From Escherichia phage ECCR664, in sequence record OL631257.1: a stretch of DNA of 64,000 nucleotides, one strand, 5' to 3'. Shown piece by piece: positions 5,368-30,566 of this stretch (its first letter is position 1; each line of letters begins with the position of its first letter). The notes beneath the pieces are model-generated. The model did no database searches and was not told the DNA's origin. It saw nothing but the letters and a program-made list of their open reading frames with translations. A program made the position numbers and the translations under genes.

Positions 5368-5773
5368 TATTTTTCCTTTCATCGATTAAATATGCAACGC
5401 CAAATACAATACATGTAATAAAACCTGTGATACAGATAGAAACCAACAACACTGTACCAAAGAACCAAATCAAGTTATCTTTAGTAGTTTGTTTGATATC
5501 CATCTCACGAATTTCTATAGCTATCGTATCACCTTTATTCAGAAGCGTATAAAACGACGGTGATACATGCCTGTCAAAAACTCGACCTTGTTCATCTTTA
5601 TAGACTGCAATAAATTCTAATTTAGAATATTTTCCTGTAGATTGACCTGAAATTAATTCCACTACCTCCACAGGAATTACTTTAGTTTCCATGTAAGTAT
5701 TCTGGCTGTTCCAAATGAACGGAATAATGGCAAAAACTAAAGCTGCGATAAAACAACGAAGGCTATATCTCAT
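5360..5773 (-). CDS. predicted membrane protein (2 TM)
   Basis: 137-aa ORF with hydrophobic segments 'CFIAALVFAIIPFIW' and 'IWFFGTVLLVSICITGFITCIVFGVAYLI'. Confidence 0.5.
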   Translation of the reverse strand: MRYSLRCFIAALVFAIIPFIWNSQNTYMETKVIPVEVVELISGQSTGKYSKLEFIAVYKDEQGRVFDRHVSPSFYTLLNKGDTIAIEIREMDIKQTTKDNLIWFFGTVLLVSICITGFITCIVFGVAYLIDERKNNV

Positions 5774-6078
5774 TATAATGTTCTCTCAAATTTGTGGAAG
5801 CATTTACGGCATTTCAATTTCAAGTTATCAGTGGTCCAGTTAACCAGTTGGACTTGGATAGTTCCACATTCTGGACATGGATGTTTTGCTGCCGATTTGG
5901 CAGCATTTTCACGTCGTTCAACCATTTTCATTATTTCGTTCCATGCCGGAGGAACGAACTCTTCTTCACCGTGGATTTTATCTCGCTGAACAAATTCAAT
6001 CTTTGAACTATCGTCAATAAACTTAACCAAGCCATGATTAGTGCTCATATCAATATCCTCTAGAAGACGTAGTTTCAT
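5773..6078 (-). CDS. zinc-ribbon protein
   Basis: 101 aa with 'CPECG...CRKC' Cys4 pattern. Confidence 0.5.
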   Translation of the reverse strand: MKLRLLEDIDMSTNHGLVKFIDDSSKIEFVQRDKIHGEEEFVPPAWNEIMKMVERRENAAKSAAKHPCPECGTIQVQLVNWTTDNLKLKCRKCFHKFERTL

Positions 6079-7027
6079 TATAACACCTCAATGGCATTTC
6101 GTAAACCATCCGCTTTCGCATTCAGAACTTTTAACGATTTAGTTTGTTCTGCAATCTGGGCTTCGACTTCTTTCAGACGAGATTTGAGGTACTCACGTTC
6201 TTCTCTTAAATTATCAACTTTTTCTACTTTAGGTTCTTTAATAGGCTTAAGTTTATACATATTAGGGTTCTTCAGTTTAATTTGAATTCGAGAACTGAAT
6301 AACATTGAACCGTTATCTTCAGTTTCGCTGAACATTTCAACAACATCCATAGTCTGTAACATCATACGAAGTTTATAAGACAGCGAACGAACGGTTTTGT
6401 TGTGCTTATTAATTTCTTCAGCTTTCATGGTACCGAGATTACGTGAGTAGTAATAAGGAACCTGGATATCAATTGATAATGATGCGTTACCATTACCGGT
6501 TGGTTTGAATACTGCAGTAACCCAATCTTTAACATGAACTTTATTTGTACGACCATCACCGCCAGTGAATAATTTACGAGAATGTTTAAAAAGCATATTC
6601 ACTTGGTTATTGAATTCACAAGCAAATTTATCAGCAAATTTAGTTTCAGGAATTGTAGATAACCAATCAGCTAAATGAGTCTTTTAACATCGTTAATAAT
6701 AGTAAATTCAACCAAATCGGTTTTAGATGTCACAGATTTAATAAAGCTCGGTTTCATAAAGTTTTTAATGTTATCGCGAGCTACAGTAGAAGATAATAAA
6801 CGAGAACGTTTGAACCATTGAAGCAGCGTCCCTAATGAATGAGAATATGCATTTTGAGTATCTTTACAGATATGATTTTCTTGGCCGGTATATGTACCAA
6901 AATCGCGAAGAATACCACTTACTACATCTCGGTGTGGAACATCAAATCCTAATGAACCAGAAGCACGTTGGGCATGAACATTAGCGATAAGACCTGCAAA
7001 ATAATCAATGTAATGTGAACGTGTCAT
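6078..7027 (-). CDS. hypothetical protein (about 316 aa, frameshift about 6600-6690), coiled-coil C-terminus
   Basis: ORFs 6671..7027 and 6078..6602 are adjacent on the minus strand with coding continuity across frames. Confidence 0.45.
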
Positions 7028-7055
7028 AATATTTTCCTCTCGTTAAGATAGATTC

Positions 7056-7085
7056 ATTATACTCTAACCATCCTTGGTTGTAAAC
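7056..7085 (-). promoter_or_regulatory. T4-type early promoter
   Basis: Minus strand GTTTAC, 18 nt, TATAAT immediately upstream of 6078..7027. Confidence 0.55.
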
Positions 7086-7089
7086 TGAT

Positions 7090-8047
7090 TTATGATTTTA
7101 ATGCATTCATTGCGTTAAAAAGTTTAGAGTACTGCAACTGGAGATTGGTAACTACTTGTTGAGCATCACGAAGCTTAGCTTGTGCTTTGTCAAGTTCAAC
7201 AGACAGTTGGTCCATAGTGGCCTTGATTTGATTGTAATGGTAATCTTCGGCCGGAAGAAGGTCATTAGAAACATTTAGTTTTACTGCAGACAGTTTGCAC
7301 ACATTTGGCAAACCTTTAAACATTGATTTACCCGAAGTAGAATAAGCACTTAAGACTTCGGCCTGTTCAATTGGGGTCCCAGTAAGCGATGCTTCAAACA
7401 ATGCATTTTCCTTTTAAGATTTTGATAGTATTCAGAGTCTTTGTGCCACCATGGCGCAGGAACCTTTTACCAATAGATACACGAGCCTGGATAGCGATAT
7501 GGCCCTTATTCTTAATAGGGTTGATAATATTAAGCTCACGAGAATAAATCGCTTTAATCTGGTGGATATTATCACCTAAAACTTCCAACGCTTGGTGGAA
7601 TACACGAGCAACGTTATCATTCTTAGGTTTATACGTAAGAGTGAACTCATTCTCACTGATAACCATGATTTCTAACTTATCGTAAGTATATTTCAAATGT
7701 TTCATGTTAATTGCTTGAGGACGAATACGAGAAGCAATGGCCATCAGATTGTTAAGGTTATTTCGGAACTGTTTAGCGAAATATTGTCCTTCACCGCCGA
7801 TACAAAAATTACGAAGTTTCTGTTTGGCTAATAAACGGCTGAACTCACCATTTTTAATGAACTCTTTAACGGGTGTGTTAGTAACGCATTCAAATTGAGT
7901 AAACTTACGAGAAGTAATCCCATAATATGAACAGATTTCCTCAATCTCTTCAGGAGTCTTTACAGGCATACGGATAGGATTAGGTCCTGGAGTATATGCG
8001 TTCGAGGTAAATTCTTTGATAAGTTCTCTACGTGTAATAAAAGCCAT
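7090..8047 (-). CDS. hypothetical protein (about 319 aa, frameshift about 7394-7401)
   Basis: ORFs 7394..8047 and 7090..7401 overlap by 8 nt in different frames. Confidence 0.45.
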
Positions 8048-8073
8048 TTTATATTCCTCATGTTGAAAAATTT

Positions 8074-8102
8074 ATTATACTCCAACCATCCTTGGTTGTA
8101 CA
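8074..8102 (-). promoter_or_regulatory. T4-type early promoter
   Basis: Minus strand TGTACA, 17 nt, TATAAT upstream of 7090..8047. Confidence 0.5.
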
Positions 8103-9098
8103 TCATTCCTTAAGAAGTTTTACTACTTGAATAAGATTAGCTCGTTCTGTTTTATTTTTACCATTTAAGCCTGCTAATCGTGAGATTTCATCGTCAGTCT
8201 GTTGAATAGTTACATTAAGTTCGTTAATCAAAGCTTCAAAGTATTTGATTTGCTCAGCATGTTTTGATTCAAATTTCTGAACCGGAATAACGTCTTGGTT
8301 TAGTTCGTCAATAAGGTCTTTAAGAGCATCTTCTTGGTTGATATCGTATTCAACTTCTTTTATTTCTTCAACTAGCTCGTCTTTATATCTAACGTCTTTT
8401 AGTCCTGGTGCTGGTCCTGAAATCTCTTCTTTAAGAGTACAAACATACCCAATACGGTATCCAGTGTCGTCTCGCTTGATATCAACTTCGTCGATAAATC
8501 CACAATGTTTGAGACCAGAGCCGATTAGGTCAAAATATCCTTGACGACGTCCTTCAAACGTTACACGAACTACTAAGACAGTTTTGCCTGCAATCTTTTG
8601 AAGCTCACATTTATAAAAGTCAGTTGAACCTGAATAACGTGGATGAGTTTTAAAGTTCATCTGTCGATCTAGGCCCATTTGTAAACGTGCTGTTACGGCC
8701 ATAAAACGTGTTTGGTTCTCGTTAAGATGAGCAACAATCCATTTCAAAGGCATTTTACACTGTTCACGACCGAACAAATCAGTACGTCCTAGATTACGCA
8801 GGATGTTGTTAGAGTTAATCATCGACAGAACGTTAAGTTTATTCAGCGCGCTGAAGATTCCATCAGCCATTGATTTTCCGTAGCCTTTACACGCTTTAAT
8901 AAGCGCTCGCGGTAGATTAGTATAGATTTCAGACGGCATATGAAAATCAAATTTACTAACCAGTAATTGATGAACTTGGATAGCAATTCGTTCATAATTA
9001 AGCGCTCTGCGATCATTATGGTCTTTAAACCACACTTTAATCTGTGAAGCACATAAACCGTTAATTTCATGTTTTATCGCATCAGATGTAATGCTCAT
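8103..9098 (-). CDS. hypothetical protein (331 aa), C-terminal coiled coil
   Basis: Intact 331-aa ORF; no recognisable catalytic motif. Confidence 0.55.
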   Translation of the reverse strand: MSITSDAIKHEINGLCASQIKVWFKDHNDRRALNYERIAIQVHQLLVSKFDFHMPSEIYTNLPRALIKACKGYGKSMADGIFSALNKLNVLSMINSNNILRNLGRTDLFGREQCKMPLKWIVAHLNENQTRFMAVTARLQMGLDRQMNFKTHPRYSGSTDFYKCELQKIAGKTVLVVRVTFEGRRQGYFDLIGSGLKHCGFIDEVDIKRDDTGYRIGYVCTLKEEISGPAPGLKDVRYKDELVEEIKEVEYDINQEDALKDLIDELNQDVIPVQKFESKHAEQIKYFEALINELNVTIQQTDDEISRLAGLNGKNKTERANLIQVVKLLKE

Positions 9099-9160
9099 AA
9101 CTATTTCCTCAGATTGAATTGGAACTCAAAACCATTATAACCCGTCCTTGGGTAAAGCGT

Positions 9161-9373
9161 TTATGCGTGAACCGTCTTTAAACGTTCTTCAAATTTCCGA
9201 AGAGTACTAATACGTTCTGCTTTCTGTTTTGTATAGTTTGCAATACGTTCTGAAGTGAGAGCGTATCGTTCGTTTACTGTTTCTTTCATGAAGTCAGGGA
9301 TTTCACGAGAAGCTTTAATTTCATCAAACTTATCGAGTACTGCCTGGTCTTCAGCGATTAAATTTTCGTACAT
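9161..9373 (-). CDS. hypothetical protein (70 aa)
   Basis: ORF in early block. Confidence 0.4.
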   Translation of the reverse strand: MYENLIAEDQAVLDKFDEIKASREIPDFMKETVNERYALTSERIANYTKQKAERISTLRKFEERLKTVHA

Positions 9374-9434
9374 CTCGATATCTTTCTTAATGAAGTCGAT
9401 ATCTTCCTGTGTTACTTTGGATAAACGAGATGCT

Positions 9435-9686
9435 TTATCCTTTTGTACTGCTCGTTAGTTTCACGAGACCAGAATAATGTACGTTTTTGTTAGTGTTTTT
9501 GTAGACTTCCACAATTCCAACTGAATCGATGATAACAATCCAATTCCAGCGAGATTTGAAAATCTGACCTCCATCCACGGTAATCTCATTACCATAAGCA
9601 ACGTCATTAAAGAACTTGCTTTGTGCTTCAGATTTAAATTTACCGTCGTTATAATTTACCAGGTTGAAAATATCTTTAGCGTTCAT
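9435..9686 (-). CDS. hypothetical protein (83 aa)
   Basis: ORF with RBS and early promoter upstream. Confidence 0.4.
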   Translation of the reverse strand: MNAKDIFNLVNYNDGKFKSEAQSKFFNDVAYGNEITVDGGQIFKSRWNWIVIIDSVGIVEVYKNTNKNVHYSGLVKLTSSTKG

Positions 9687-9713
9687 GTTTTACCTCCAGT
9701 AGTTGATAGGTCT

Positions 9714-9742
9714 ATAATAACATAATCATAGACCTTGTAAAC
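9714..9742 (-). promoter_or_regulatory. T4-type early promoter
   Basis: Minus strand GTTTAC, 17 nt, TATTAT. Confidence 0.5.
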
Positions 9743-9744
9743 AA

Positions 9745-10056
9745 CTAAAAGAAACTTTTTCGGTATTTTTCCACTGAACCAAACCGACTTCGGGATTTTT
9801 GTAATTTTTCAGATTTAAGTTTCTCTTCCTGTTCTTTCTTATATACACCCTTGTCGTACTGGAGCATCTCTATGGCATTCTTTTGCAAACGATCTAAGGT
9901 AATTAAGGCTTTAGTTTTTCCTTTCAAGGAAGAGTCCTGGCGAACCTCCTCGCTATATTGCATTGTAGAACTAACCATACGATGAGCATAGAGTTCGACT
10001 GCTGCTTTGATTTTTGCATAAAATCCATAACATATCCTCTTTGATTTGTACATCAT
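9745..10056 (-). CDS. hypothetical protein (103 aa, Lys-rich C-terminus)
   Basis: ORF. Confidence 0.4.
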   Translation of the reverse strand: MMYKSKRICYGFYAKIKAAVELYAHRMVSSTMQYSEEVRQDSSLKGKTKALITLDRLQKNAIEMLQYDKGVYKKEQEEKLKSEKLQKSRSRFGSVEKYRKSFF

Positions 10057-10166
10057 TATTTTTAAATATTTCTATGCCCTCAGTAGGTTCCTGGTGTCCT
10101 TCTTTGAGGTAAGCCATATGATTATTCATCTTTATGGCTTTTGTTACCTCAGAACTTCCTATAAGC

Positions 10167-11153
10167 TTATTTCAGTAAAGTTACTTCGGAGATTTCCTCC
10201 CAACCATCTTTATCAGTTGAAATAAAATCTGCTACATAAAGAGCCGTACGTAATGATACATTGCGAAGACGAGATACGTTAGCCTTCATCCAGGACAATG
10301 CTTTGTACGTTTCAGCATCAGTCAGACCACGTTTCTGCATCATGTCAGTAGATAATATTACATCTTCAACTCGAACCATAATCTCTTCATTAGAGTGTAC
10401 TCCAAGGTCGAGATACACTGAACGAGATACTAAAGCTTGAAGGTGTGGAGCAAGTTTCGAACCACGTTCTAACTCTTTATCGATATCAACGTTTGTAATG
10501 AAAACGATAGTACCTTCAAACTCAAATTCTTTATCAATACCCTTATCATCAAGATAAGATGACGCAGTGCTCCAACAAACTTTGCGTTTATCTCCGGTAT
10601 CTAATGCTGCTTTAAGAAGGTTCAAGATATCCATATCAGAGAATACATCAACATCGTCGATTAAGAGAACGCTGTCTGCATCACGGTTGAGCCAAAGTTG
10701 TTCGTAAAGGCCAATACCAGAGATTTTACCATTAATGCTTTTGTATTTGATGAAGCCATTATCATTAGCACTATTAAGTGCTTTATCCAGAGAATACGTC
10801 TTACCAATACCGGCTGCACCTGAAATAATGAGTGAACGAATTTTGCCATCGATAATGCCATTCGTCATCATGTTCATTACTTTAAAGCGTTTGTTGATGC
10901 GAGTTTTCATATCTTCAGTGCTTTCAACAACTGCAACTGGTGATGTCTCAACTCCTTCCATTACGATGTCTGATTTGAAGACCCATACTCCACGTTCAGA
11001 ACCATCAATCATAACGAAAATTTTACCATCACCTAAGTGGGAACATTCAGGATTAAGCTTTGCTGGGAACCAGGTCTTTGTGGCGACATAAGAACCAGAG
11101 ATTTCGTTATTACGATAGATACCTTTTGATTTGAACGTTGAACATTTTATTCT
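10167..11153 (-). CDS. P-loop NTPase (Walker A 'GAAGIGKT', Walker B 'LLIDDVD'), N-terminal frameshift near 11010-11040
   Basis: ORF 10167..11012 plus an upstream coding frame that starts 'MFNVQIK' at about 11153. Confidence 0.55.
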   Translation of the reverse strand, partial: RIKCSTFKSKGIYRNNEISGSYVATKTWFPAKLNPECSHLGDGKIFVMIDGSERGVWVFKSDIVMEGVETSPVAVVESTEDMKTRINKRFKVMNMMTNGIIDGKIRSLIISGAAGIGKTYSLDKALNSANDNGFIKYKSINGKISGIGLYEQLWLNRDADSVLLIDDVDVFSDMDILNLLKAALDTGDKRKVCWSTASSYLDDKGIDKEFEFEGTIVFITNVDIDKELERGSKLAPHLQALVSRSVYLDLGVHSNEEIMVRVEDVILSTDMMQKRGLTDAETYKALSWMKANVSRLRNVSLRTALYVADFISTDKDGWEEISEVTLLK

Positions 11154-11183
11154 CCAATTTACTCATTTCGTTTCGATAGGTCT

Positions 11184-11212
11184 ATAATAACATATCCTAA
11201 AAGCATGTACAC
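11184..11212 (-). promoter_or_regulatory. T4-type early promoter
   Basis: Minus strand GTGTAC, 17 nt, TATTAT upstream of the P-loop gene. Confidence 0.5.
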
Positions 11213-11223
11213 TACTTTTTAAA

Positions 11224-11247
11224 AATATTTTAACCCCTAAAGGGACC
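11224..11247 (-). terminator. hairpin terminator (UUCG tetraloop), family A copy 1
   Basis: 'gggacc cgaa ggtccc' stem-loop just downstream of 11263..11544; near-identical copy at 29648..29672. Confidence 0.45.
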
Positions 11248-11262
11248 CGAAGGTCCCCACAT

Positions 11263-11544
11263 TTACTTATCGCACTTAGCAACATAATTAGGCATATCAC
11301 AGAATACGGAGCGAGTAACTACTCGACCCTTTGACCATGCTTCAGTTGCTTGTCCGGCAGTGCTATTAATATAGCTTGATTTGATATTCTCAATACCCTG
11401 AGAATGTGATGCATTTACCGAACCGTTGGAAGGCCCAGAAGACTGGTTACCACCAGCTCCTGCACTACCGCTGGCTGCACCCGTGGTAGCACCAACAGAG
11501 AACGCCATCATTACTGCGAATAAACCAATTACTAATTTTTTCAT
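11263..11544 (-). CDS. secreted Gly/Ser-rich protein with N-terminal signal peptide
   Basis: 'MKKLVIGLFAVMMAFSVGA' signal-like N-terminus, then a low-complexity G/S/A region; 93 aa. Confidence 0.55.
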   Translation of the reverse strand: MKKLVIGLFAVMMAFSVGATTGAASGSAGAGGNQSSGPSNGSVNASHSQGIENIKSSYINSTAGQATEAWSKGRVVTRSVFCDMPNYVAKCDK

Positions 11545-11639
11545 ATTTACCTCAAGTGAATGGTTATTTATCTATTTATAGTAAGAATTATGATTTTCGA
11601 GATAGACTTGCTCAAGGAAATCATCCCAGAAACTCATAT

Positions 11640-12560
11640 CTACTTTTGTTGCATACCGTTCTTAGCGGCTTGTTCTGATGCTTGTTCAACTTGGTCAACG
11701 ATATCTTCTAGGAATTCTTGTACAGTTTTAAACGTATGTTTACCAAGCTTAACATCAAGAATAAATGGAGCATCCTGAAGCGGGTAAACCAGGTCACCGG
11801 TTTTGTAAATTTCCAATAATTGAAGTCCACCACGACATGCATGACTCAATGCTTTCCAGTCAATACCTTCGTTGGCTTCCGCCTTACGAGCACGTTCACC
11901 ATAGTTCTCTTCCAGTTTAACCAGGATGGCATTGAACTCTTTATTGGTTAACGTGTCTTGGAATTTACGGTCTAATAGATTATAGAATGTTTGCTTACCT
12001 GTTTTCTCGTTTTCGGTTTCAACCCATGAAGCAAATTCACCTACAGGCAGAACATTCTTCATATGTGATAAACGAATTACCGCACCATTATCAAAGTATT
12101 GTCCCCATTCATTAGAACGTTTAAGGGCTTGACGAAGAACAGCCAGTCGAGAACCCTTGACACCATATTTAGAAGCTTGCTTACGGACATACCCTAAATA
12201 AGATTTCATGTTAGTGGTATAGAAACGAGACCTGTTATCTTGAATATACTTCCATACATCAGGCAAATCAGATTTAACTACTAGACTTGGTGGGGTGTGA
12301 AGCATATCTAATGCGACGGTTTCACCATCTGCAGCTAGTTTAAAGAAATATTTGAGACTATACAACTCGTGGTCCACGTCGTCTTTTGTGTTCTTAGAAG
12401 CAGTGTTGTTAGTGTTCTTGCTCATGTGTTCTTTAACGTTACCGGTCAAGATATCACGAGCATGAGGGACATAAATTTCTTTAAAATCGACGTCAGATTC
12501 AGGAGTAGACGTTCCATAAAGGTGGCTACCAAAGTAGCCTTTCATAATTGTTTTCATCAT
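11640..12560 (-). CDS. Pol-beta-superfamily nucleotidyltransferase-fold protein
   Basis: 'FGSHLYGTSTPESDVDF' fits the hG[GS]x9-13 DxD NTase signature; a third acidic strand 'ETVALDMLH' follows; 306 aa. Confidence 0.5.
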   Translation of the reverse strand: MMKTIMKGYFGSHLYGTSTPESDVDFKEIYVPHARDILTGNVKEHMSKNTNNTASKNTKDDVDHELYSLKYFFKLAADGETVALDMLHTPPSLVVKSDLPDVWKYIQDNRSRFYTTNMKSYLGYVRKQASKYGVKGSRLAVLRQALKRSNEWGQYFDNGAVIRLSHMKNVLPVGEFASWVETENEKTGKQTFYNLLDRKFQDTLTNKEFNAILVKLEENYGERARKAEANEGIDWKALSHACRGGLQLLEIYKTGDLVYPLQDAPFILDVKLGKHTFKTVQEFLEDIVDQVEQASEQAAKNGMQQK

Positions 12561-13030
12561 TTAGCCTTATATTCAAGAGTAGGACAGACTTTTTCTTTAC
12601 GAGCTTTAAGGTATTCACCTATTAATGATTTCTTACGTTCAATAGGCTCAAGTCCATTTTTAATTCGTTCTTGGTTTTGTGCAATGAGCTCAATTTCTTT
12701 ATAATATTTTCTGTCGTTATATTTGTCTAATAACCAAGATGGACCAATTACCGCCCCGACAGCAATAAGAACCATTACTGATATTGTTAAAATGCCTATA
12801 CCAATTGAAGCAGGAACTAATGTCCATAAACTACTAAAGACAAAGAATTTAGTTAAAATTTCTTGGCCAATGATTGCGGCACCTGCTAAAGTTGCAAATC
12901 CAACAATTGAAACAGCCAATACCGGAATAAACGTTTTCCAAAAATAAGCACATAATGTTTTCGGACGATTCCACGTACTATTGAACGTGGCATAAATTTT
13001 AAAGTGCCAAGAGTTTTCATTGATAATCAT
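12557..13030 (-). CDS. membrane protein (2-3 TM) with basic cytoplasmic tail; translationally coupled to the downstream NTase gene
   Basis: Hydrophobic segments 'FIPVLAVSIVGFATLAGAAIIG' and 'LVPASIGIGILTISVMVLIAVGAVIG'; stop overlaps the NTase start (ATGA). Confidence 0.5.
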   Translation of the reverse strand: MIINENSWHFKIYATFNSTWNRPKTLCAYFWKTFIPVLAVSIVGFATLAGAAIIGQEILTKFFVFSSLWTLVPASIGIGILTISVMVLIAVGAVIGPSWLLDKYNDRKYYKEIELIAQNQERIKNGLEPIERKKSLIGEYLKARKEKVCPTLEYKAK

Positions 13031-13049
13031 AATAATTCCTTATTTCAAA

Positions 13050-13581
13050 GTCGGGATAATAGAATCGAGATAAGCTTTAAGAGCAACTGCTTCATCTTTG
13101 TCTAATGTAATGATATGTTGACGAAGGTCATCAATTTGGCGAATAACTACAACATCACCGTCTTCATAAGAAGGATTAACGCTCAGGACTGTTGTATAGT
13201 CAGGGTTGTCCTGATTTGTAATAAAAGCATTACGACATTTAGCCCATTGAAGTTTGGCCTTTTGGCTGTTTCAGATTCCATGAATTCTTTCACTTTAGCG
13301 ACGAATGTTTTCCAATTATTAATAGAAAAACATTCGTCTTCTGTTTCGATATTAACCCCACTATAAAGTCCGTGATAAAAACGAACTTGAAGGTCTTCAT
13401 CAATGTTAATTACAGATGCATGGCCTGGTGGATTGAGTTTCAAAATCTTGTCCAGTTCCATAGGAAGAATAGTAACAGCATCATCTTCTTGCGTCAGAAC
13501 GTAAGCATAACCGCGTTTTTCAATACATAAATCACCGAACAACTCTGTTGTTTCAATTACAGTTTTCATATTATTCACCAA
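13050..13581 (-). CDS. hypothetical protein (frameshift about 13260)
   Basis: ORF 13183..13581 plus a continuing frame to about 13050. Confidence 0.4.
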
Positions 13582-13756
13582 TTAAAGTTTCAACAAAATT
13601 CACCAAAGCATTCTGGCAAGCGTCAACCTGATTTTCATAAAAGTCTACGTTATCATTTACCGCATGATAAGCTACATCATTCAAATCTGAATCGGCTTCA
13701 CGTAAGTCATGGATAAGGTCCATCAATTTATTAGCTTGTTCACGGGTCATTTTACC
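13577..13756 (-). CDS. small hypothetical protein (59 aa, acidic)
   Basis: 'MTREQANKLMDLIHDLREADSDLNDVAYHAVNDNVDFYENQVDACQNALVNFVETLIGE'. Confidence 0.35.
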
Positions 13757-13885
13757 ATACTCGTTTCAATAAGATTCACTATGCCGTTTACCATGTTATA
13801 AGTAAACATCGGATAATTGTATTGTACTACAACATAAGCGATAAGCAAAAGTTTCATTTTGTTCTCCGTTCGTTTTGATAGGACT

Positions 13886-13915
13886 ACTATAACATAGTCC
13901 TATCAAGTTGTAAAC
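13886..13915 (-). promoter_or_regulatory. T4-type early promoter
   Basis: Minus strand GTTTAC, 17-18 nt, TATAGT inside the conserved 'gataggactactataacatagtcctatc' element. Confidence 0.5.
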
Positions 13916-14151
13916 TACCGATTGTGTTTTAAATGTTGATAAAGTTCTTCAACTTGTTTAGGGTCCAAAACAATTAAGTCATTTTCTTGACGAAGATAAA
14001 TCCATCCCTTATCCCCAGGGCCATTTTTACAAAACATCACCGTCGTCATATCGTCATCTTCAGCGCTTTCAGGTAAAAGTTCAAGTACACCGTCTTCAGA
14101 TTTTCCAGTATAATCGTAAAGCATAATATCCTCACATAATCTCGTTAACAT
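13915..14151 (-). CDS. hypothetical protein (78 aa)
   Basis: ORF. Confidence 0.4.
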   Translation of the reverse strand: MLTRLCEDIMLYDYTGKSEDGVLELLPESAEDDDMTTVMFCKNGPGDKGWIYLRQENDLIVLDPKQVEELYQHLKHNR

Positions 14152-14389
14152 ACATTTGCAATTCGGTGTGCGTATCAGCCATCTTTTTCATAGCTCTGTT
14201 AATGTCGATGTCTCCATCTTCGCAACCATGAGCATTTTCCCAATCAGATACCGCATTAGCGTACTCTTCAATCAAAAACATTAACTTAGAAATTTTTTCT
14301 TTACGTGTCATAATGTTCTCCTCTAGTAAGTAAAGACTACTATAACACAACCTGAGGAAAAGTAAACTGCTAAATGCCAAAAGCCCCAA
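14132..14389 (-). CDS. hypothetical protein (85 aa; true start possibly internal)
   Basis: ORF. Confidence 0.4.
   Translation of the reverse strand: MGLLAFSSLLFLRLCYSSLYLLEENIMTRKEKISKLMFLIEEYANAVSDWENAHGCEDGDIDINRAMKKMADTHTELQMYVNEIM
14339..14367 (-). promoter_or_regulatory. T4-type early promoter
   Basis: Minus strand GTTTAC, 17 nt, TATAGT. Confidence 0.5.
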
Positions 14390-14405
14390 CCTTTCGGAAG
14401 GGGCT
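14376..14405 (-). terminator. rho-independent terminator, family B copy 1
   Basis: 'agcccc aacctttcggaa ggggct' hairpin followed by a U-run on the minus strand, downstream of rI; identical copy at 30340..30366. Confidence 0.55.
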
Positions 14406-14411
14406 ATTAAA

Positions 14412-14713
14412 TTAGATAGATGTAGGCTCTAATTTTATTTTCATGAACTCAGCAAATTGTCTGGCGGTTTTTATGCCTTGTTCATGACATTCAAATGCAT
14501 CATCACAGGGACTATTTTTGTAATGCTTTGCCATATACTTATAGAATTTTTCAGAATTCTCGACATTTTGAATTTCAAACAAAGTATATACGTTTTTAAT
14601 CCCTGATTCCATAAAGTTATCAAAATATGGGTCGATATGTGCAGTACCAACGATAGGAGTTGTTGCTGCAAAAACCCCAGCATCGCTATGACAGCTATCG
14701 CTCTTAAGGCCAT
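14412..14713 (-). CDS. rI: lysis inhibition regulator RI (membrane/periplasmic antiholin-type), frameshifted
   Basis: 'MALRAIAVIAMLGF' then frame change into 'AATTPIVGTAHIDPYFDNFMESGIKNVYTLFEIQN...KIKLEPTSI'; matches T4 RI. Confidence 0.85.
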
Positions 14714-14725
14714 ATAGGCCTCCTG

Positions 14726-14938
14726 TTAATTTTGGCCAGTATTTATTTTTCGCCTTTGGACGGCCTTAACATCTGTGAGGTATTTTTCCAGCTTGCGCTT
14801 GCGTGTATAATCAGCTTTAGAACCAGTTTGACGGATATCCTCATTTAAATGAGAAATAGAATGTCCTAATTCTCTTCGGATTTCATCCAATTGGGTTACA
14901 GTAAGATTACGAAGTTGTCTTTCGTTTAATTGCTGCAT
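14726..14938 (-). CDS. hypothetical protein (70 aa), rI.1 position
   Basis: ORF between rI and tk. Confidence 0.45.
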
Positions 14939-14965
14939 ATATACCTCTTGGTTAGATATTAGTAT

Positions 14966-15545
14966 TTATAACAACCCTGTCAAATCATTCCAATGCTTCC
15001 GGCATAATGACACGTATCTATCAGTATCACCAATTTCAATTTGACTGCCATCTGTAATTGGAAGTCCGTCTTCCGTGACTCTAGCTACCATTGTGGCCTT
15101 TTACCACAATGACAGACACCTTTAAGTTCAACAAGCTTATCGGCAATAGCCATTAATGCTTGAGAACCTTCAAATAGATTACCTTTAAAATCTGTTCGTA
15201 GTCCATATGCCATTACTGGCACATTGTATACGTCAACAATACGACTAAGTTGATACACCTTTTCAGTAGTTAAGAACTGAGCTTCGTCAACAAATACACA
15301 ATGAATATCCTTTGTGCTGCAGCCCATTTATAGAATTCAAAGATGTCCATGTCTTTTGTAATTATATTGGCATCCTGACGAATACCAATACGAGAGACTA
15401 TTTCACCTTTTGAATCACGAGTATCAATAGCCGGTTTAAGAACTAATACACCCATGCCACGTTCTTTATAGTTATGTGCGGCAGTAAGTAATGAAGCAGA
15501 CTTACCAGCATTCATAGCGGCATATGTAAAAATTAAACTAGCCAT
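14966..15545 (-). CDS. tk: thymidine kinase, frameshifted (at least 2 indels)
   Basis: P-loop '[22 protein letters not shown]', 'VFVDEAQFL', C-terminal 'CHCGKK..' Zn motif across ORFs 15270..15545 and 15085..15327 and a third frame. Confidence 0.9.
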
Positions 15546-15554
15546 AAGAGTCCC

Positions 15555-15737
15555 TTATAGTGAATTCACGTAGTCAATGAGTTCTTGTTCTTTCCTGTCA
15601 AATGATTCCATCAATGCGTGATATTCTTCGTCCGTCAAAGGAGCATATTCATCGTACGCATTGGTGGCTGCTTGTTCATCCAATAGGTCATGGATAAGTT
15701 CGAACAGTTTAGCTTTCTCTTCTTTAGTCAATTTCAT
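15555..15737 (-). CDS. hypothetical protein (60 aa)
   Basis: ORF. Confidence 0.4.
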   Translation of the reverse strand: MKLTKEEKAKLFELIHDLLDEQAATNAYDEYAPLTDEEYHALMESFDRKEQELIDYVNSL

Positions 15738-15946
15738 TTAGGTTCACCTTCTTTAACGAAATCTGGGTAAGGGTAAAATCCTGAGTAAAACCCTTCACCT
15801 TTATGATTACTACAACCTTTGTTCGAACAGTAACACCAATAATCAAAATCACAAGCCATTTCGTCATTGCATAAAGCAAAAACTACAGGCCATTCGCATT
15901 TTTCGCATTTAGCGCCTGTAAGAATTTTTGTTTGGCTCATAACCAT
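15734..15946 (-). CDS. small Cys-rich protein (70 aa, 8 Cys)
   Basis: 'CEKCEW...CNDEMACDFDYWCYCSNKGC'. Confidence 0.4.
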   Translation of the reverse strand: MVMSQTKILTGAKCEKCEWPVVFALCNDEMACDFDYWCYCSNKGCSNHKGEGFYSGFYPYPDFVKEGEPK

Positions 15947-16164
15947 GTCACCTTTAAGCAGTATTCTTCTACATGCTGTTTACGACCTTTCTTATCAATA
16001 AAGGTATATTCAACGAATGTTCCAATGTAGTCTTTATCTACATCATGTGGACTATTAATTGGACATTTAGTACGACAAATGCGTTCCCATTGACGAATAA
16101 TTACTGCCTTATTCTTTGGGTCGTATGGATGTGGATAATGTATATTCATAATAATGGTTCCCAA
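15937..16164 (-). CDS. hypothetical protein (75 aa)
   Basis: ORF. Confidence 0.4.
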   Translation of the reverse strand: MGTIIMNIHYPHPYDPKNKAVIIRQWERICRTKCPINSPHDVDKDYIGTFVEYTFIDKKGRKQHVEEYCLKVTWL

Positions 16165-16643
16165 TCAACAATCACAATTTCTAGTTTAGTGGAATACGTA
16201 TCTAAAATCTCTTCGATGATATCCCAGTTTCCGCCACCGATACCAGCACCAATTCTTGGCATATAAATTAAAGGCTTTGTTATCTTATTCTTTCCGAATT
16301 TATTTAATTCTATTATACAATTCATTAAAGCAGAGTACTCAAAATTAGGTCCAGGCTCAAACTGTGTATAAAGATTAAAGCAATAAGCTTTATGGGTCTT
16401 AAAATATTTTTCATAAACCGAATAAGTCCCGAGTTTAGATTCGTCTCCGAATTCGGTTTGAAGTTTATCGGCTTCCAGAATTTTTGGATAAGCCTTTGCT
16501 AATTGACCTGCTACACCAGCGCCCATTGTATGAAAACAATTGCACCCATGAGCAATATTATTACCTTTAGAAAACAGGGCGACAATATCGCCCTTGATAT
16601 AGTTTTTAATCACTTGCTGCAAGTCCTCTAGTATAAGAGTCAA
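16146..16643 (-). CDS. macrodomain-like protein (putative ADP-ribose binding/processing)
   Basis: 'IAHGCNCFHTMGAGVAGQLAKAYP' resembles the macro 'NAANxxLxxGGGVxxAI' motif; 'PRIGAGIGGGNWD' resembles the distal GxGxxG phosphate loop; 165 aa. Confidence 0.5.
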   Translation of the reverse strand: MTLILEDLQQVIKNYIKGDIVALFSKGNNIAHGCNCFHTMGAGVAGQLAKAYPKILEADKLQTEFGDESKLGTYSVYEKYFKTHKAYCFNLYTQFEPGPNFEYSALMNCIIELNKFGKNKITKPLIYMPRIGAGIGGGNWDIIEEILDTYSTKLEIVIVDWEPLL

Positions 16644-16953
16644 CTAGACGGTCCACCATAGAATTGCATGCTGCCTTATCTTTAGGTTCCGCCACCGAGC
16701 ATTCTAATATTTGCCATTTTTTATAGTATCTTTTAATTAAGGTAGACGCCTTGAACCTACTAGACGCCCCATCTTTTTCTCCGTCTTTATACGCATATAA
16801 CAATTTTTGTGAAAAATCTACTTTACACTCTTGACTTTTACCACAATAATCAGACGCCGTTCTGTTTGTATACTCCGTTACATCAGTATATGTAGTATTA
16901 GCAAGAGCGTTAAATGAAACCAAGCCAACTATTAAAGCTAACATTTTGGTCAT
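16606..16953 (-). CDS. predicted periplasmic protein with signal peptide (115 aa)
   Basis: 'MTKMLALIVGLVSFNALA' signal-like N-terminus. Confidence 0.45.
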   Translation of the reverse strand: MTKMLALIVGLVSFNALANTTYTDVTEYTNRTASDYCGKSQECKVDFSQKLLYAYKDGEKDGASSRFKASTLIKRYYKKWQILECSVAEPKDKAACNSMVDRLVDSYTRGLAASD

Positions 16954-17492
16954 TCTTTTATTTCCAGTAGTTTATTTGATTTAAGGTAATTAGCCTTTTC
17001 TAGGACTTCAGAAGCATATTTACTTCCAGCACTTGTCTTCCATCCCGCATTATATGAGGATATAGCTTTTCTTATATCCCCGTTATGTATATTTAACCAA
17101 TAAGAAAATTCGATATAAGCCCATCTGGCTGAATTAGACCGCTTAGATAGCATTTTCTTAATTTGGGCATCAGTCATATTATAACCAAGCTGGTTAATTC
17201 TTGCCCTCATTGTTGGTAGATAGTTTTGGAACATTCCATACGCATGGTGACCTTTCTTATCTTTAAGATTAATACCTGCGGATGATTCTTGCCATAGTAT
17301 TGCGGCCATTATGTATCCAAGTCCTTTCTTATGCATATTTTCATGCGTTTTAAATTTTCCGTCCTTAGAAAACTGTTCCCCAAACTGATAAGCATAATTC
17401 AAGTTATCGAGTTGGACATTACTAAAAGTATGCTCGGAGCTATGTGCTGATAACGAAAGAGCAAATAGACCAGCGAGTAGTGCTTTTCTCAT
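16950..17492 (-). CDS. secreted lytic transglycosylase-like protein (SLT-like)
   Basis: Signal peptide 'MRKALLAGLFALSLSA'; 'WQESSAG...YGMFQ' resembles the SLT catalytic 'ES...GLMQ' motif. Confidence 0.45.
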   Translation of the reverse strand: MRKALLAGLFALSLSAHSSEHTFSNVQLDNLNYAYQFGEQFSKDGKFKTHENMHKKGLGYIMAAILWQESSAGINLKDKKGHHAYGMFQNYLPTMRARINQLGYNMTDAQIKKMLSKRSNSARWAYIEFSYWLNIHNGDIRKAISSYNAGWKTSAGSKYASEVLEKANYLKSNKLLEIKE

Positions 17493-17500
17493 GTTTACCT

Positions 17501-17957
17501 CTAGATTTTAATCACTGCTTTAGAAGCTTTTCCTGGTAGTCGTTTACTGTTAATAATAGCCATTCTGCATTGAAGAGTCTTCATTTTGAATGCTGGATTT
17601 TCGCGACAGACTGTAAGTCCTAACCAAAGATTTCCGTCAGTTATTTCTAAACGGCCTGGGCGATATTCGACACCTTCGACAAAATCTTCATCAACATCTG
17701 GACGTGCCGGCATTGATAAAAATTCTGCAACTTCTTTAACATGATTTTTACTTTATGAAATAATTCAAAACGTAATTCTCATCTATTTCTCTCTGGATGG
17801 CACGATCTAAGAGATGTTGAGAATACTTGATATGAAAGCCTGGTAGTCCAAGAGACTTTGCAGCATCTTTTATACCGGCATTTATTTTGCGGAACTCCGT
17901 TTCAAAGATTCGACGGAGTTTATTACGGCGGATAAAAACGTCAGAATTGATAGTCAT
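17501..17957 (-). CDS. regB: endoribonuclease RegB, frameshifted
   Basis: ORFs 17748..17957 ('MTINSDVFIRRNKLRR...HLLDRAIQREIDE') and 17501..17713 ('...GVEYRPGRLEITDGNLW...CRMAIINSKRLPGKASKAVIK') match T4 RegB. Confidence 0.85.
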
Positions 17958-17986
17958 TTTTGATTTCTCCTCTAGTTGACAGGTCT

Positions 17987-18015
17987 ATAGTAACACATCT
18001 AGAGGAGAAGTAAAC
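17987..18015 (-). promoter_or_regulatory. T4-type early promoter
   Basis: Minus strand GTTTAC, 17 nt, TACTAT upstream of regB. Confidence 0.5.
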
Positions 18016-30366: not shown

Positions 30367-30409
30367 TATATACCTTGTCGGGGTTTCCACCTACTAAGGC
30401 AAGTGTTTG

Positions 30410-30566
30410 TACGAAACGCCGGGATTCGAACCCGGTTATTAAGCAGTTGACGCTACTCAATATTTTTAAAGGCCATATCTCGACCATATCCGAACGTTCC
30501 GTCAAAAACGCTACTCGGCTTACGGCAAAGATATTTCCTCGAATCGATAATTCTGTGCGCCGTTTC
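30410..30566 (-). ncRNA. tRNA-like small stable RNA (candidate T4 species 1/2-type RNA) or degenerate tRNA
   Basis: Canonical T-arm 'CCGGGTTCGAATCCCGG' and acceptor-like 3' end, but about 155 nt long with no clean cloverleaf. Confidence 0.3.

What the first reader, a model, noticed from the sequence alone, without database searches (positions are those of the whole stretch)
11640..13030. Nucleotidyltransferase-fold protein translationally coupled to a small membrane protein
The 306-aa ORF 11640..12560 carries a textbook Pol-beta NTase signature ('GSHLYGTSTPESDVDF', i.e. G-S-x10-D-x-D, plus a later acidic strand 'ALDMLH'). Its start overlaps the stop of an upstream 157-aa 2-3 TM protein (12557..13030), and a secreted Gly/Ser-rich protein lies immediately downstream. 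I do not recognise this as a T4 core gene. An NTase beside a membrane protein resembles minimal signalling-nucleotide modules (cyclase plus membrane effector), but could equally be a tRNA/RNA-modifying or host-takeover nucleotidyltransferase.
Basis: partly seen in the sequence, partly recalled or inferred. Interest (0 to 1): 0.65.

Follow-up and report, generated by a model that had tools for sequence, protein, structure and literature searches.

The report
T4 NrdC.11-type RNA-repair nucleotidyltransferase
This is the already catalogued phage T4 gene nrdC.11, an enzyme family shown to add one or two nucleotides to broken RNA ends. The small membrane gene beside it is a separate conserved phage gene, not a demonstrable partner, so the finding is ordinary.

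Summary
Both ORFs are real and overlap by 4 nt (ATGA). The GS…DxD motif is genuine.

**Identity.** The NTase is the ortholog of T4 NrdC.11 (79% identity). It passes the Pfam RlaP (PF10127) threshold. It occurs in about 1,540 phage records.

**ORF end.** The 306-aa length is an artefact. A one-base loss in an A5 run, one of about 20 homopolymer under-calls in 12.6 kb, removes a conserved 22-residue C-terminal segment. All relatives are 303–358 aa.

**Function.** RlaP enzymes add 1–2 NMPs to RNA 3'-OH ends (2025 preprint, which names T4 NrdC.11 but did not assay it). Bacterial homologs lie next to RtcB, PNKP ligase or RtcA in 13 of 69 loci. tRNA repair together with the phage's Pnk and Rnl1 is therefore the likeliest role.

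**Signalling module not supported.**
- No CD-NTase, OAS or CCA match by HMM or by fold.
- The membrane protein (PHROG 944) is absent from T4, from 34 of 79 viral NTase loci and from all bacterial loci.
- It also occurs without any RlaP in Pakpunavirus and ICP1.

Verdict: already known, low interest.

The parts
11640..12560 (-). NTase ORF as it reads in the window (306 aa). Ortholog of T4 NrdC.11; Pfam PF10127 RlaP; PHROG 388.
11572..11643 (-). Displaced C-terminal tail (VDMSFWDDFLEQVYLENHNSYYK plus stop). It is intact in the other frame and belongs to the gene once the A-run is restored.
11644..11647 (-). A4 run where all relatives have A5. This one-base homopolymer under-call creates the premature TAG at 11640..11642.
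12483..12530 (-). G11-S12...D23-x-D25 Pol-beta NTase signature (GSHLYGTSTPESDVDF). G11, S12, D23 and D25 are invariant in 61 homologs.
12372..12374 (-). D63 (in VDHELY, predicted beta strand 62-68). Probable third catalytic carboxylate; it aligns with the invariant Asp of canonical RlaP.
   Evidence: inference
12306..12308 (-). D85 (ALDMLH). Conserved in at least 90% of homologs but modelled in helix 81-87; it aligns with a conserved Glu of canonical RlaP.
12557..12560 (-). ATGA stop/start overlap between the membrane ORF and the NTase ORF.
12557..13030 (-). 157-aa membrane protein of PHROG 944; no Pfam family. Conserved N-terminal SWH...LCxYFW and C-terminal KAxKxKxCPxIEF motifs. H9, C27, Y29 and C149 are invariant in the 37-sequence alignment.
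11263..11544 (-). 93-aa signal-peptide Gly/Ser-rich ORF (PHROG 2243). A sporadic insert found in only 2 of 80 related loci and absent from T4.
10167..11012 (-). Homolog of T4 NrdC.10 (P-loop ATPase, PHROG 1250). Its N-terminus is lost in the window through a 2-nt homopolymer deletion at about 11124.
13183..13581 (-). Homolog of T4 y05I/mobD.1 (Pfam T4_y05I_N). It is the conserved upstream neighbour of the membrane gene.

Best explanation
The ORF encodes the Mosigvirus ortholog of T4 NrdC.11. It is a Pol-beta-fold nucleotidyltransferase of the RlaP family (PF10127). The true product is about 328 aa; the 306-aa reading is a homopolymer sequencing error.

Most likely mechanism: it binds an RNA 3'-OH end and an NTP in the cleft between the NTase domain and a helical domain. 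Using D23/D25 and probably D63 with Mn2+ or Mg2+, it adds one or two nucleotides without a template. In infection this would restore a nucleotide that a host anticodon nuclease of the RloC type has excised from a cleaved tRNA. The phage's own polynucleotide kinase and RNA ligase 1, encoded elsewhere in the genome, could then reseal a functional tRNA.

The upstream 157-aa membrane protein (PHROG 944) is an independent, widely distributed phage early gene of unknown function. It is packed against the NTase gene by ordinary T4-type gene compaction. It is not a demonstrable effector or partner.

Shown here: orthology, family membership, conservation of the catalytic residues, the RNA-repair neighbourhood of bacterial relatives, and the separability of the two genes.
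Inferred: the RNA 3'-tailing activity of this subfamily, its tRNA target, and its cooperation with Pnk and Rnl1.
For: - Pfam RlaP 47.3 bits against a cutoff of 23. PHROG 388 'nucleotidyltransferase' E=6.8e-115.
- 79% identity to T4 NrdC.11 and 99% to the Mosigvirus O157tp3 protein.
- PMC12776372: two Pseudomonas RlaP enzymes add 1-2 NMP to RNA 3'-OH ends, prefer Mn2+, prefer the 5' half of a cleaved tRNA, and do not act on DNA or protein. The paper places T4 NrdC.11 in the family.
- PMC7824862: the distribution of RlaP in jumbo phages mirrors that of RNA ligases.
- Bacterial homologs at 34-54% identity: 13 of 69 loci have RtcB, PNKP ligase or RtcA within 6 kb, and 12 of 69 have a canonical RlaP, directly downstream in 10.
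- The profile-profile match to canonical RlaP covers the catalytic core (prob 94.5%, E=7e-8).
- AF2 model with pLDDT 93 shows an NTase domain plus a helical domain.
- The closest annotated relative encodes Rnl1, Pnk and Rnl2.
- Independence of the membrane gene.
Against: - No enzyme of the NrdC.11 subfamily (SSN cluster 5 in the preprint) has been assayed.
- Similarity to the characterised RlaPs is detectable only over about 80 core residues. The C-terminal two thirds, including a beta-sheet insert, is subfamily-specific.
- In phages the gene is not adjacent to pseT or rnlA.
- The only biochemical source is a preprint, whose authors note unresolved problems, including the compatibility of the product end with RtcB.
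- T4 nrdC.11 is dispensable in the laboratory (PMC9825161), so no phenotype is known.
- Membrane-gene/NTase proximity persists in very divergent T4-like phages. This is compatible with, though does not require, a functional link.
Confidence: 0.6

Rival explanations
1. General RNA tailing for host takeover. The NTase adds short untemplated tails to host or phage RNAs (mRNA, tRNA 3' ends, sRNAs) to alter their stability or function, rather than repairing nuclease-damaged tRNA.
For: - The characterised RlaPs label rRNA-, tRNA- and fragment-sized RNAs and use all four NTPs with little specificity.
- The phage gene is not linked to ligase or kinase genes.
- It lies in an early region full of host-takeover genes.
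Against: - Bacterial relatives are enriched next to RtcB, PNKP or RtcA.
- RlaP prefers the nuclease-generated end over the acceptor end.
- No tailing phenotype is known in T4.
Confidence: 0.15
2. Hailong-like or anti-Hailong function. The NTase synthesises an oligonucleotide, as HalB makes oligo-dA. This either gates the adjacent membrane protein as a channel or acts as a decoy that keeps host HalA closed.
For: - Hailong is a two-gene operon of a membrane protein (HalA) and an NTase (HalB), and the window has a membrane gene directly upstream of an NTase gene.
- The membrane protein is modelled with two long helices, one continuing well past the hydrophobic stretch, plus a Lys-rich conserved C-terminus.
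Against: - No sequence similarity to HalB, even with profiles.
- The terminal Tyr is not conserved. The only semi-conserved Tyr sits inside the VDxxFWxxFxxxVY motif and is replaced by H, M, L or W in many members.
- No HalA among the Foldseek hits for the membrane model.
- The membrane gene occurs without any RlaP in at least 120 Pakpunavirus genomes and in ICP1. The NTase occurs without it in T4 and in all bacterial loci.
- PfRlaP did not use DNA or protein as acceptor.
Confidence: 0.05
3. CBASS-like minimal signalling module. The NTase is a cyclase that makes a cyclic (oligo)nucleotide sensed by the membrane protein.
For: Only the gene arrangement: an NTase translationally overlapping a small membrane protein.
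Against: - No PADLOC hit for either protein.
- Pfam gives only RlaP.
- The membrane protein has no recognisable nucleotide-sensing domain.
- Co-occurrence is not obligatory.
Confidence: 0.03
4. Protein or small-molecule nucleotidylyltransferase of the ANT or MNT type. For example, it could AMPylate and neutralise a host HEPN RNase toxin, or modify a metabolite.
For: The structural neighbours include ANT(4'), ANT(9)/AadA, LinB, MNT antitoxin and DrrA.
Against: - These are generic Pol-beta-fold matches with low TM-scores (0.2-0.37).
- NCBIfam MntA scores only E=0.071 over 18 residues, against a 60-bit cutoff.
- There is no HEPN neighbour.
- The characterised RlaPs did not label proteins.
Confidence: 0.07

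Closest known systems
T4 NrdC.11 (NP_049709, annotated 'nucleotidyltransferase')
   Same: - 79% identical over the full length.
- Same position between the nrdC.10 and mobD.1/y05I homologs.
- Same motifs, including the C-terminal VDMSFWDDFLE.VYLENH.SYYK tail.
   Different: - T4 has the HNH homing endonuclease mobD upstream instead of the membrane gene.
- T4 has no 93-aa signal-peptide ORF downstream.
- The window copy reads as truncated because of a homopolymer error.
RlaP family, Pfam PF10127 (PfRlaP and PaRlaP characterised in PMC12776372)
   Same: - Passes the Pfam threshold.
- Shares hG[GS], DxD and a further conserved Asp.
- Has an NTase domain followed by a helical domain.
- Bacterial relatives are associated with RNA-repair genes.
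   Different: - About 330 aa rather than about 250 aa.
- Profile similarity is limited to about 80 core residues.
- Has a KNTxDDVD insert and a beta-sheet insert (residues 177-201).
- Belongs to a different SSN cluster (5 versus 1a).
- Its activity is untested.
- In bacteria it often sits immediately upstream of a canonical RlaP, which suggests a non-redundant role.
Hailong HalB/HalA anti-phage system
   Same: - Both are two-gene arrangements of a membrane protein and an NTase.
   Different: - No sequence similarity.
- No conserved priming Tyr.
- The membrane protein shows no HalA match.
- Pairing is not obligatory.
- This locus is in a phage, not a bacterial defence island.
PHROG 944 phage membrane proteins (for the 157-aa ORF)
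   Same: E=3.5e-52. It shares the SWH/LCxYFW and KxCPxIEF motifs with members in Straboviridae, Pakpunavirus and ICP1.
   Different: Nothing distinguishes it from the family. The family itself has no known function and no Pfam model.

Membership tests
Pfam PF10127 RlaP | Profile HMM score above the curated gathering threshold | tested here: met
   47.3 bits against 23, E=2.8e-12, residues 7-140. Relatives carry a precomputed PF10127 assignment.
Pfam PF10127 RlaP | Pol-beta catalytic signature: hG[GS], [DE]x[DE] and a third carboxylate | tested here: met
   G11, S12, D23 and D25 are invariant; D63 and D85 are conserved in at least 90% of 61 homologs. D63 aligns with the invariant Asp of canonical RlaP.
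Pfam PF10127 RlaP | NTase domain plus C-terminal helical domain, with a terminal helix packing back on the NTase domain (PfRlaP crystal structure) | tested here: inconclusive
   The AF2 model shows an NTase domain plus a helical domain. The PfRlaP structure was not found in the PDB copy. hhalign aligns only the core. The terminal motif is conserved in relatives but frameshifted out in the window.
Pfam PF10127 RlaP | Genomic association with RNA ligases or RNA-repair genes | tested here: met
   Met for bacterial relatives: 13 of 69 loci have RtcB, PNKP ligase or RtcA within 6 kb. Not adjacent in the phage, but the closest annotated relative encodes Rnl1, Pnk and Rnl2.
Pfam PF10127 RlaP | Adds 1-2 NMP to RNA 3'-OH ends | not testable with these tools
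   Biochemistry exists only for PfRlaP and PaRlaP (PMC12776372).
CD-NTase / CBASS (cyclase plus membrane effector) | CD-NTase/SMODS sequence profile or cGAS/DncV-like fold | tested here: not met
   [not shown]
CD-NTase / CBASS (cyclase plus membrane effector) | Effector obligatorily paired with the NTase | tested here: not met
   The membrane gene is absent from T4, from 34 of 79 viral NTase loci and from all 69 bacterial loci. It is present without RlaP in Pakpunavirus and ICP1.
Hailong (HalA/HalB) | HalB-type NTase | tested here: inconclusive
   [not shown]
Hailong (HalA/HalB) | Conserved C-terminal priming tyrosine | tested here: not met
   The tails after the VDxxFW..VY motif vary in length and sequence. 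The motif Tyr is replaced by H, M, L or W in many members.
Hailong (HalA/HalB) | HalA-like channel-plus-crown membrane effector | tested here: not met
   Foldseek of the membrane model (pLDDT 79) against the PDB gave 41 hits, all with E>=1.9 and none of them HalA. This is a weak test for a small helical protein.
MNT / HEPN-MNT antitoxin (MntA) | NCBIfam/Pfam MNT profile and a HEPN partner | tested here: not met
   MntA E=0.071, 13 bits against a 60-bit cutoff. No HEPN neighbour.
CCA-adding enzyme / poly(A) polymerase | PolyA_pol head domain profile | tested here: not met
   No Pfam or NCBIfam hit. Not among the leading structural neighbours.
PHROG 944 (membrane protein) | Profile match and the shared N- and C-terminal motifs | tested here: met
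   E=3.5e-52. Motifs conserved in alignments of 21 and 37 sequences.

The most novel reading that the evidence does not exclude
The PHROG 944 membrane protein is a genuine functional partner of phage RNA-end-processing enzymes: RlaP in T4-like phages and an Rnl1-type ligase plus kinase in Pakpunavirus. In the extreme form, the pair works like Hailong, with an NTase-made oligonucleotide controlling a small 2-TM channel. The evidence does not exclude this. Proximity of the two genes persists in very divergent T4-like phages, and HalB is the nearest solved structure.
Probability: 0.07. Interest if true: 0.7.

Novelty: already known. Interest (0 to 1): 0.2.

Why it matters
Little changes. The gene is already annotated as nrdC.11 / nucleotidyltransferase / RlaP in hundreds of T4-like genomes, and a 2025 preprint has given the family a biochemical activity.

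The useful outputs are corrective:
- The ORF end is a homopolymer sequencing artefact, and the window carries many such errors.
- The probable third catalytic residue is D63, not D85.
- The cyclase-plus-effector idea can be dropped.

If the RlaP role were confirmed for NrdC.11, it would add a third enzyme to the classic T4 Pnk/Rnl1 tRNA-repair counter-defence. It would also explain how T4-like phages could cope with nucleotide-excising anticodon nucleases such as RloC.

The function of the widespread PHROG 944 membrane protein remains open.

Tried and rejected
- PDB sequence searches with the phage protein, a 61-sequence profile and a canonical RlaP found nothing usable. The PfRlaP crystal structure was not found in the PDB copy searched.
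- Foldseek of the NTase model against the PDB gave only weak generic NTase hits.
- The first homologous-protein run returned only near-identical proteins. Diversity came from the representatives search.
It was redone with database hits.
- The primary Hailong paper (PMC12360457) is not held, so Hailong features were taken from a review.
- The look-up of encoding contigs for two distant NTase representatives gave only short contigs.
- ORFs lying between the membrane gene and the NTase in other phages have no Pfam family.
- Promoter-like sites are not enriched over shuffles, so no operon boundary could be assigned.
- Rejected: programmed frameshifting at the A-run, because about 20 similar homopolymer deletions lie in the neighbourhood.
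- Rejected: T4 NrdC.7 as a homolog of the membrane protein, because the HMM finds no hit.

Full report
**What is there.** The window is part of a T4-like phage. Its nrdC–tk region is 96–98% identical to Mosigvirus-type genomes. On the minus strand lie, in order of transcription:
- a homolog of T4 y05I/mobD.1 (13183..13581);
- a 157-aa membrane protein (12557..13030);
- the NTase ORF (11640..12560);
- a 93-aa signal-peptide Gly/Ser-rich ORF (11263..11544);
- a homolog of the NrdC.10 P-loop ATPase (10167..11012).

The membrane ORF stop and the NTase start overlap in ATGA. An AAGG Shine-Dalgarno-like element lies just upstream. The motif GSHLYGTSTPESDVDF is present, and G11, S12, D23 and D25 are invariant in 61 diverse homologs.

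**The ORF end is an artefact.**
- T4 NrdC.11 and the O157tp3 ortholog continue for 22 more residues (VDMSFWDDFLE.VYLENH.SYYK).
- The window has CAACAAAAG where they have CAACAAAAAG. The 22 codons are intact in the other frame.
- All 120 closest database proteins are 324–329 aa.
- All 80 viral homologs (303–358 aa) retain the VDxxFWxxFxxxVY motif.
- A base-by-base comparison of 12.6 kb with O157tp3 shows about 20 single-base deletions, nearly all in T, A or C runs. These also split tk and remove the N-terminus of the NrdC.10 homolog.

This is the signature of homopolymer under-calling. It is not biology and not programmed frameshifting. The real gene most probably spans 11572..12560.

**Identity of the NTase.**
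- It is 79% identical to T4 NrdC.11 and lies at the same position.
- It passes the Pfam PF10127 (RlaP) gathering threshold, 47.3 bits against 23.
- Homologs occur in 1,540 phage records.
- A 2025 preprint (PMC12776372) characterised two Pseudomonas RlaPs. They add one or two NMPs to RNA 3'-OH ends, prefer Mn2+, prefer the nuclease-generated end of a cleaved tRNA, and do not use DNA or protein. They partly restore aminoacylation of a tRNA that has lost one anticodon-loop nucleotide.
- The authors place T4 NrdC.11 in the family (SSN cluster 5) but did not assay it.
- Earlier comparative work predicted the same role and noted that RlaP tracks RNA ligases in jumbo phages (PMC7824862).

- A genome scan found bacterial homologs at 34–54% identity.
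- Of 69 loci with a callable ORF, 13 have RtcB, a PNKP-type ligase or RtcA within 6 kb. Pfam confirmed representatives of each.
- In 12 of 69 loci a canonical 255-aa RlaP is present, directly downstream in 10, so a long and a short form occur in tandem.
- Profile-profile comparison of the NrdC.11-type alignment with these canonical RlaPs gives 94.5% probability (E=7e-8), but only over 81 core columns. The phage-type protein is thus a distinct long subfamily.
- That alignment pairs window D63 (VDHELY) with the invariant Asp of canonical RlaP, and D85 with a conserved Glu.
- In the AF2 model (pLDDT 93), D63 begins strand 62–68 whereas D85 lies in helix 81–87.
- The closest annotated relative encodes Rnl1, polynucleotide kinase and Rnl2 at distant loci, so the partners needed for repair exist.

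**Tests of the signalling-module idea.**
- PADLOC gave no hit for either protein.
- Pfam and NCBIfam gave no CD-NTase, OAS, CCA-adding or credible MNT match.
- The other Hailong features fail. There is no sequence or profile similarity. No C-terminal tyrosine is conserved. The membrane protein model (pLDDT 79; two long helices with paired N- and C-terminal strands) finds no HalA and nothing significant in the PDB.

**Is the membrane gene a partner?**
- It belongs to PHROG 944. Its motifs are conserved: SWH, LCxYFW and KAxKxKxCPxIEF. H9, C27, Y29 and C149 are invariant.
- Among 79 viral loci centred on the NTase, the gene lies upstream on the same strand in 44 and only downstream in one more. 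No ORF of 50 aa or more intervenes in 20 of these. A 4-nt overlap as in the window occurs in 13. One to five unrelated ORFs intervene in 24.
- In 34 of the 79 loci there is no copy within 5 kb.
- T4 has the homing endonuclease mobD in its slot and no copy in the region examined (T4 38–62 kb) (PMC2988022).
- No bacterial NTase locus has it.
- Conversely, PHROG 944 members occur in about 123 Pakpunavirus genomes, and no RlaP of either type was detected in these genomes. In the one examined, MAG1, the gene lies directly upstream of an Rnl1-type RNA ligase and a P-loop kinase.
- In ICP1 the gene sits upstream of a dNMP-kinase-like gene.
- The NrdC.10 ATPase homolog is found near the NTase in 37 of 80 loci, against 47 for the membrane gene.

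The pairing is best read as inherited gene order in a compact early region. The persistence of proximity in very divergent T4-like contigs and the Pakpunavirus ligase neighbourhood keep a small probability of a real link.

**Verdict.** This is an already known gene of a recently characterised family. The likeliest role is untemplated nucleotide restoration on damaged tRNA ahead of Pnk/Rnl1 ligation. That role is inferred, not shown, for this subfamily. T4 nrdC.11 is dispensable in the laboratory (PMC9825161), which fits a conditional counter-defence function. The cyclase-plus-effector interpretation is not supported.

Noticed in passing
window 5400..18000: About 20 single-base deletions relative to Mosigvirus O157tp3, almost all in homopolymer runs (T5 to T4, A5 to A4, C5 to C4). 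The sequence looks like an unpolished long-read or flow-chemistry assembly, so many ORFs in the window are probably falsely split or truncated.
   Followed up: partly
window 14966..15545 (-): Thymidine kinase is split into three ORFs (41, 80 and 91 aa) by homopolymer deletions at about 15099 and 15311.
   Followed up: partly
L084:1944-8399 (Pseudomonas phage MAG1, Pakpunavirus): The PHROG 944 membrane gene lies in a cluster made up of an HD phosphohydrolase, a Metallophos_2 phosphoesterase, an HTH protein, the membrane protein, an Rnl1-type RNA ligase, an AAA_33 kinase, PRPP-synthetase-like prs and a nicotinamide phosphoribosyltransferase. This is a second, RlaP-free association of the membrane family with RNA-end-processing genes.
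   Followed up: partly
L106:6001-7746, and 10 other bacterial loci (e.g. L109, L094, L131, L138): In bacteria a long NrdC.11-type NTase is followed immediately by a canonical 255-aa RlaP. This tandem of two divergent RlaP paralogs is sometimes accompanied by RtcB, RtcA or a PNKP ligase. It suggests the two forms have non-redundant roles or act as a pair.
   Followed up: partly
T4 record NC_000866 56429..57208 (L003:2430-3209): In T4 the HNH homing endonuclease mobD occupies exactly the slot held by the membrane gene in the window and overlaps the nrdC.11 start. In VR26-type phages mobD is annotated next to the NTase while the membrane gene is retained further upstream.
   Followed up: partly
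window 30409..30502 (-): ARAGORN calls a 94-nt 'tRNA-Stop' with anticodon tta, next to tRNA-Arg(tct) and tRNA-Met(cat). It could be a type II tRNA (such as Leu-taa) mis-registered by a homopolymer error, or a genuine ochre-suppressor-like tRNA.
   Followed up: no
window 11263..11544 (-): The 93-aa signal-peptide Gly/Ser-rich ORF (PHROG 2243) has a weak sub-threshold YbgS-like match. It is a sporadic insert, present in 2 of 80 related loci and absent from T4. Relative to O157tp3 it carries a 15-nt in-frame length difference in the Gly/Ser tract. A terminator-like hairpin follows at 11232..11247.
   Followed up: partly
L049:3712-4592 and L067:3934-6737 (Acinetobacter-type T4-like phages): Two paralogs of the PHROG 944 membrane gene per locus. 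They are in tandem upstream of the NTase in L049 and flank the NTase in L067.
   Followed up: no
window 10167..11160 (-): The NrdC.10 homolog is a P-loop ATPase with weak AAA_22 and AAA_16 matches and a weak C-terminal HTH_37-like match. It is found near the NTase in 37 of 80 loci, against 47 for the membrane gene. Its function is unknown.
   Followed up: no
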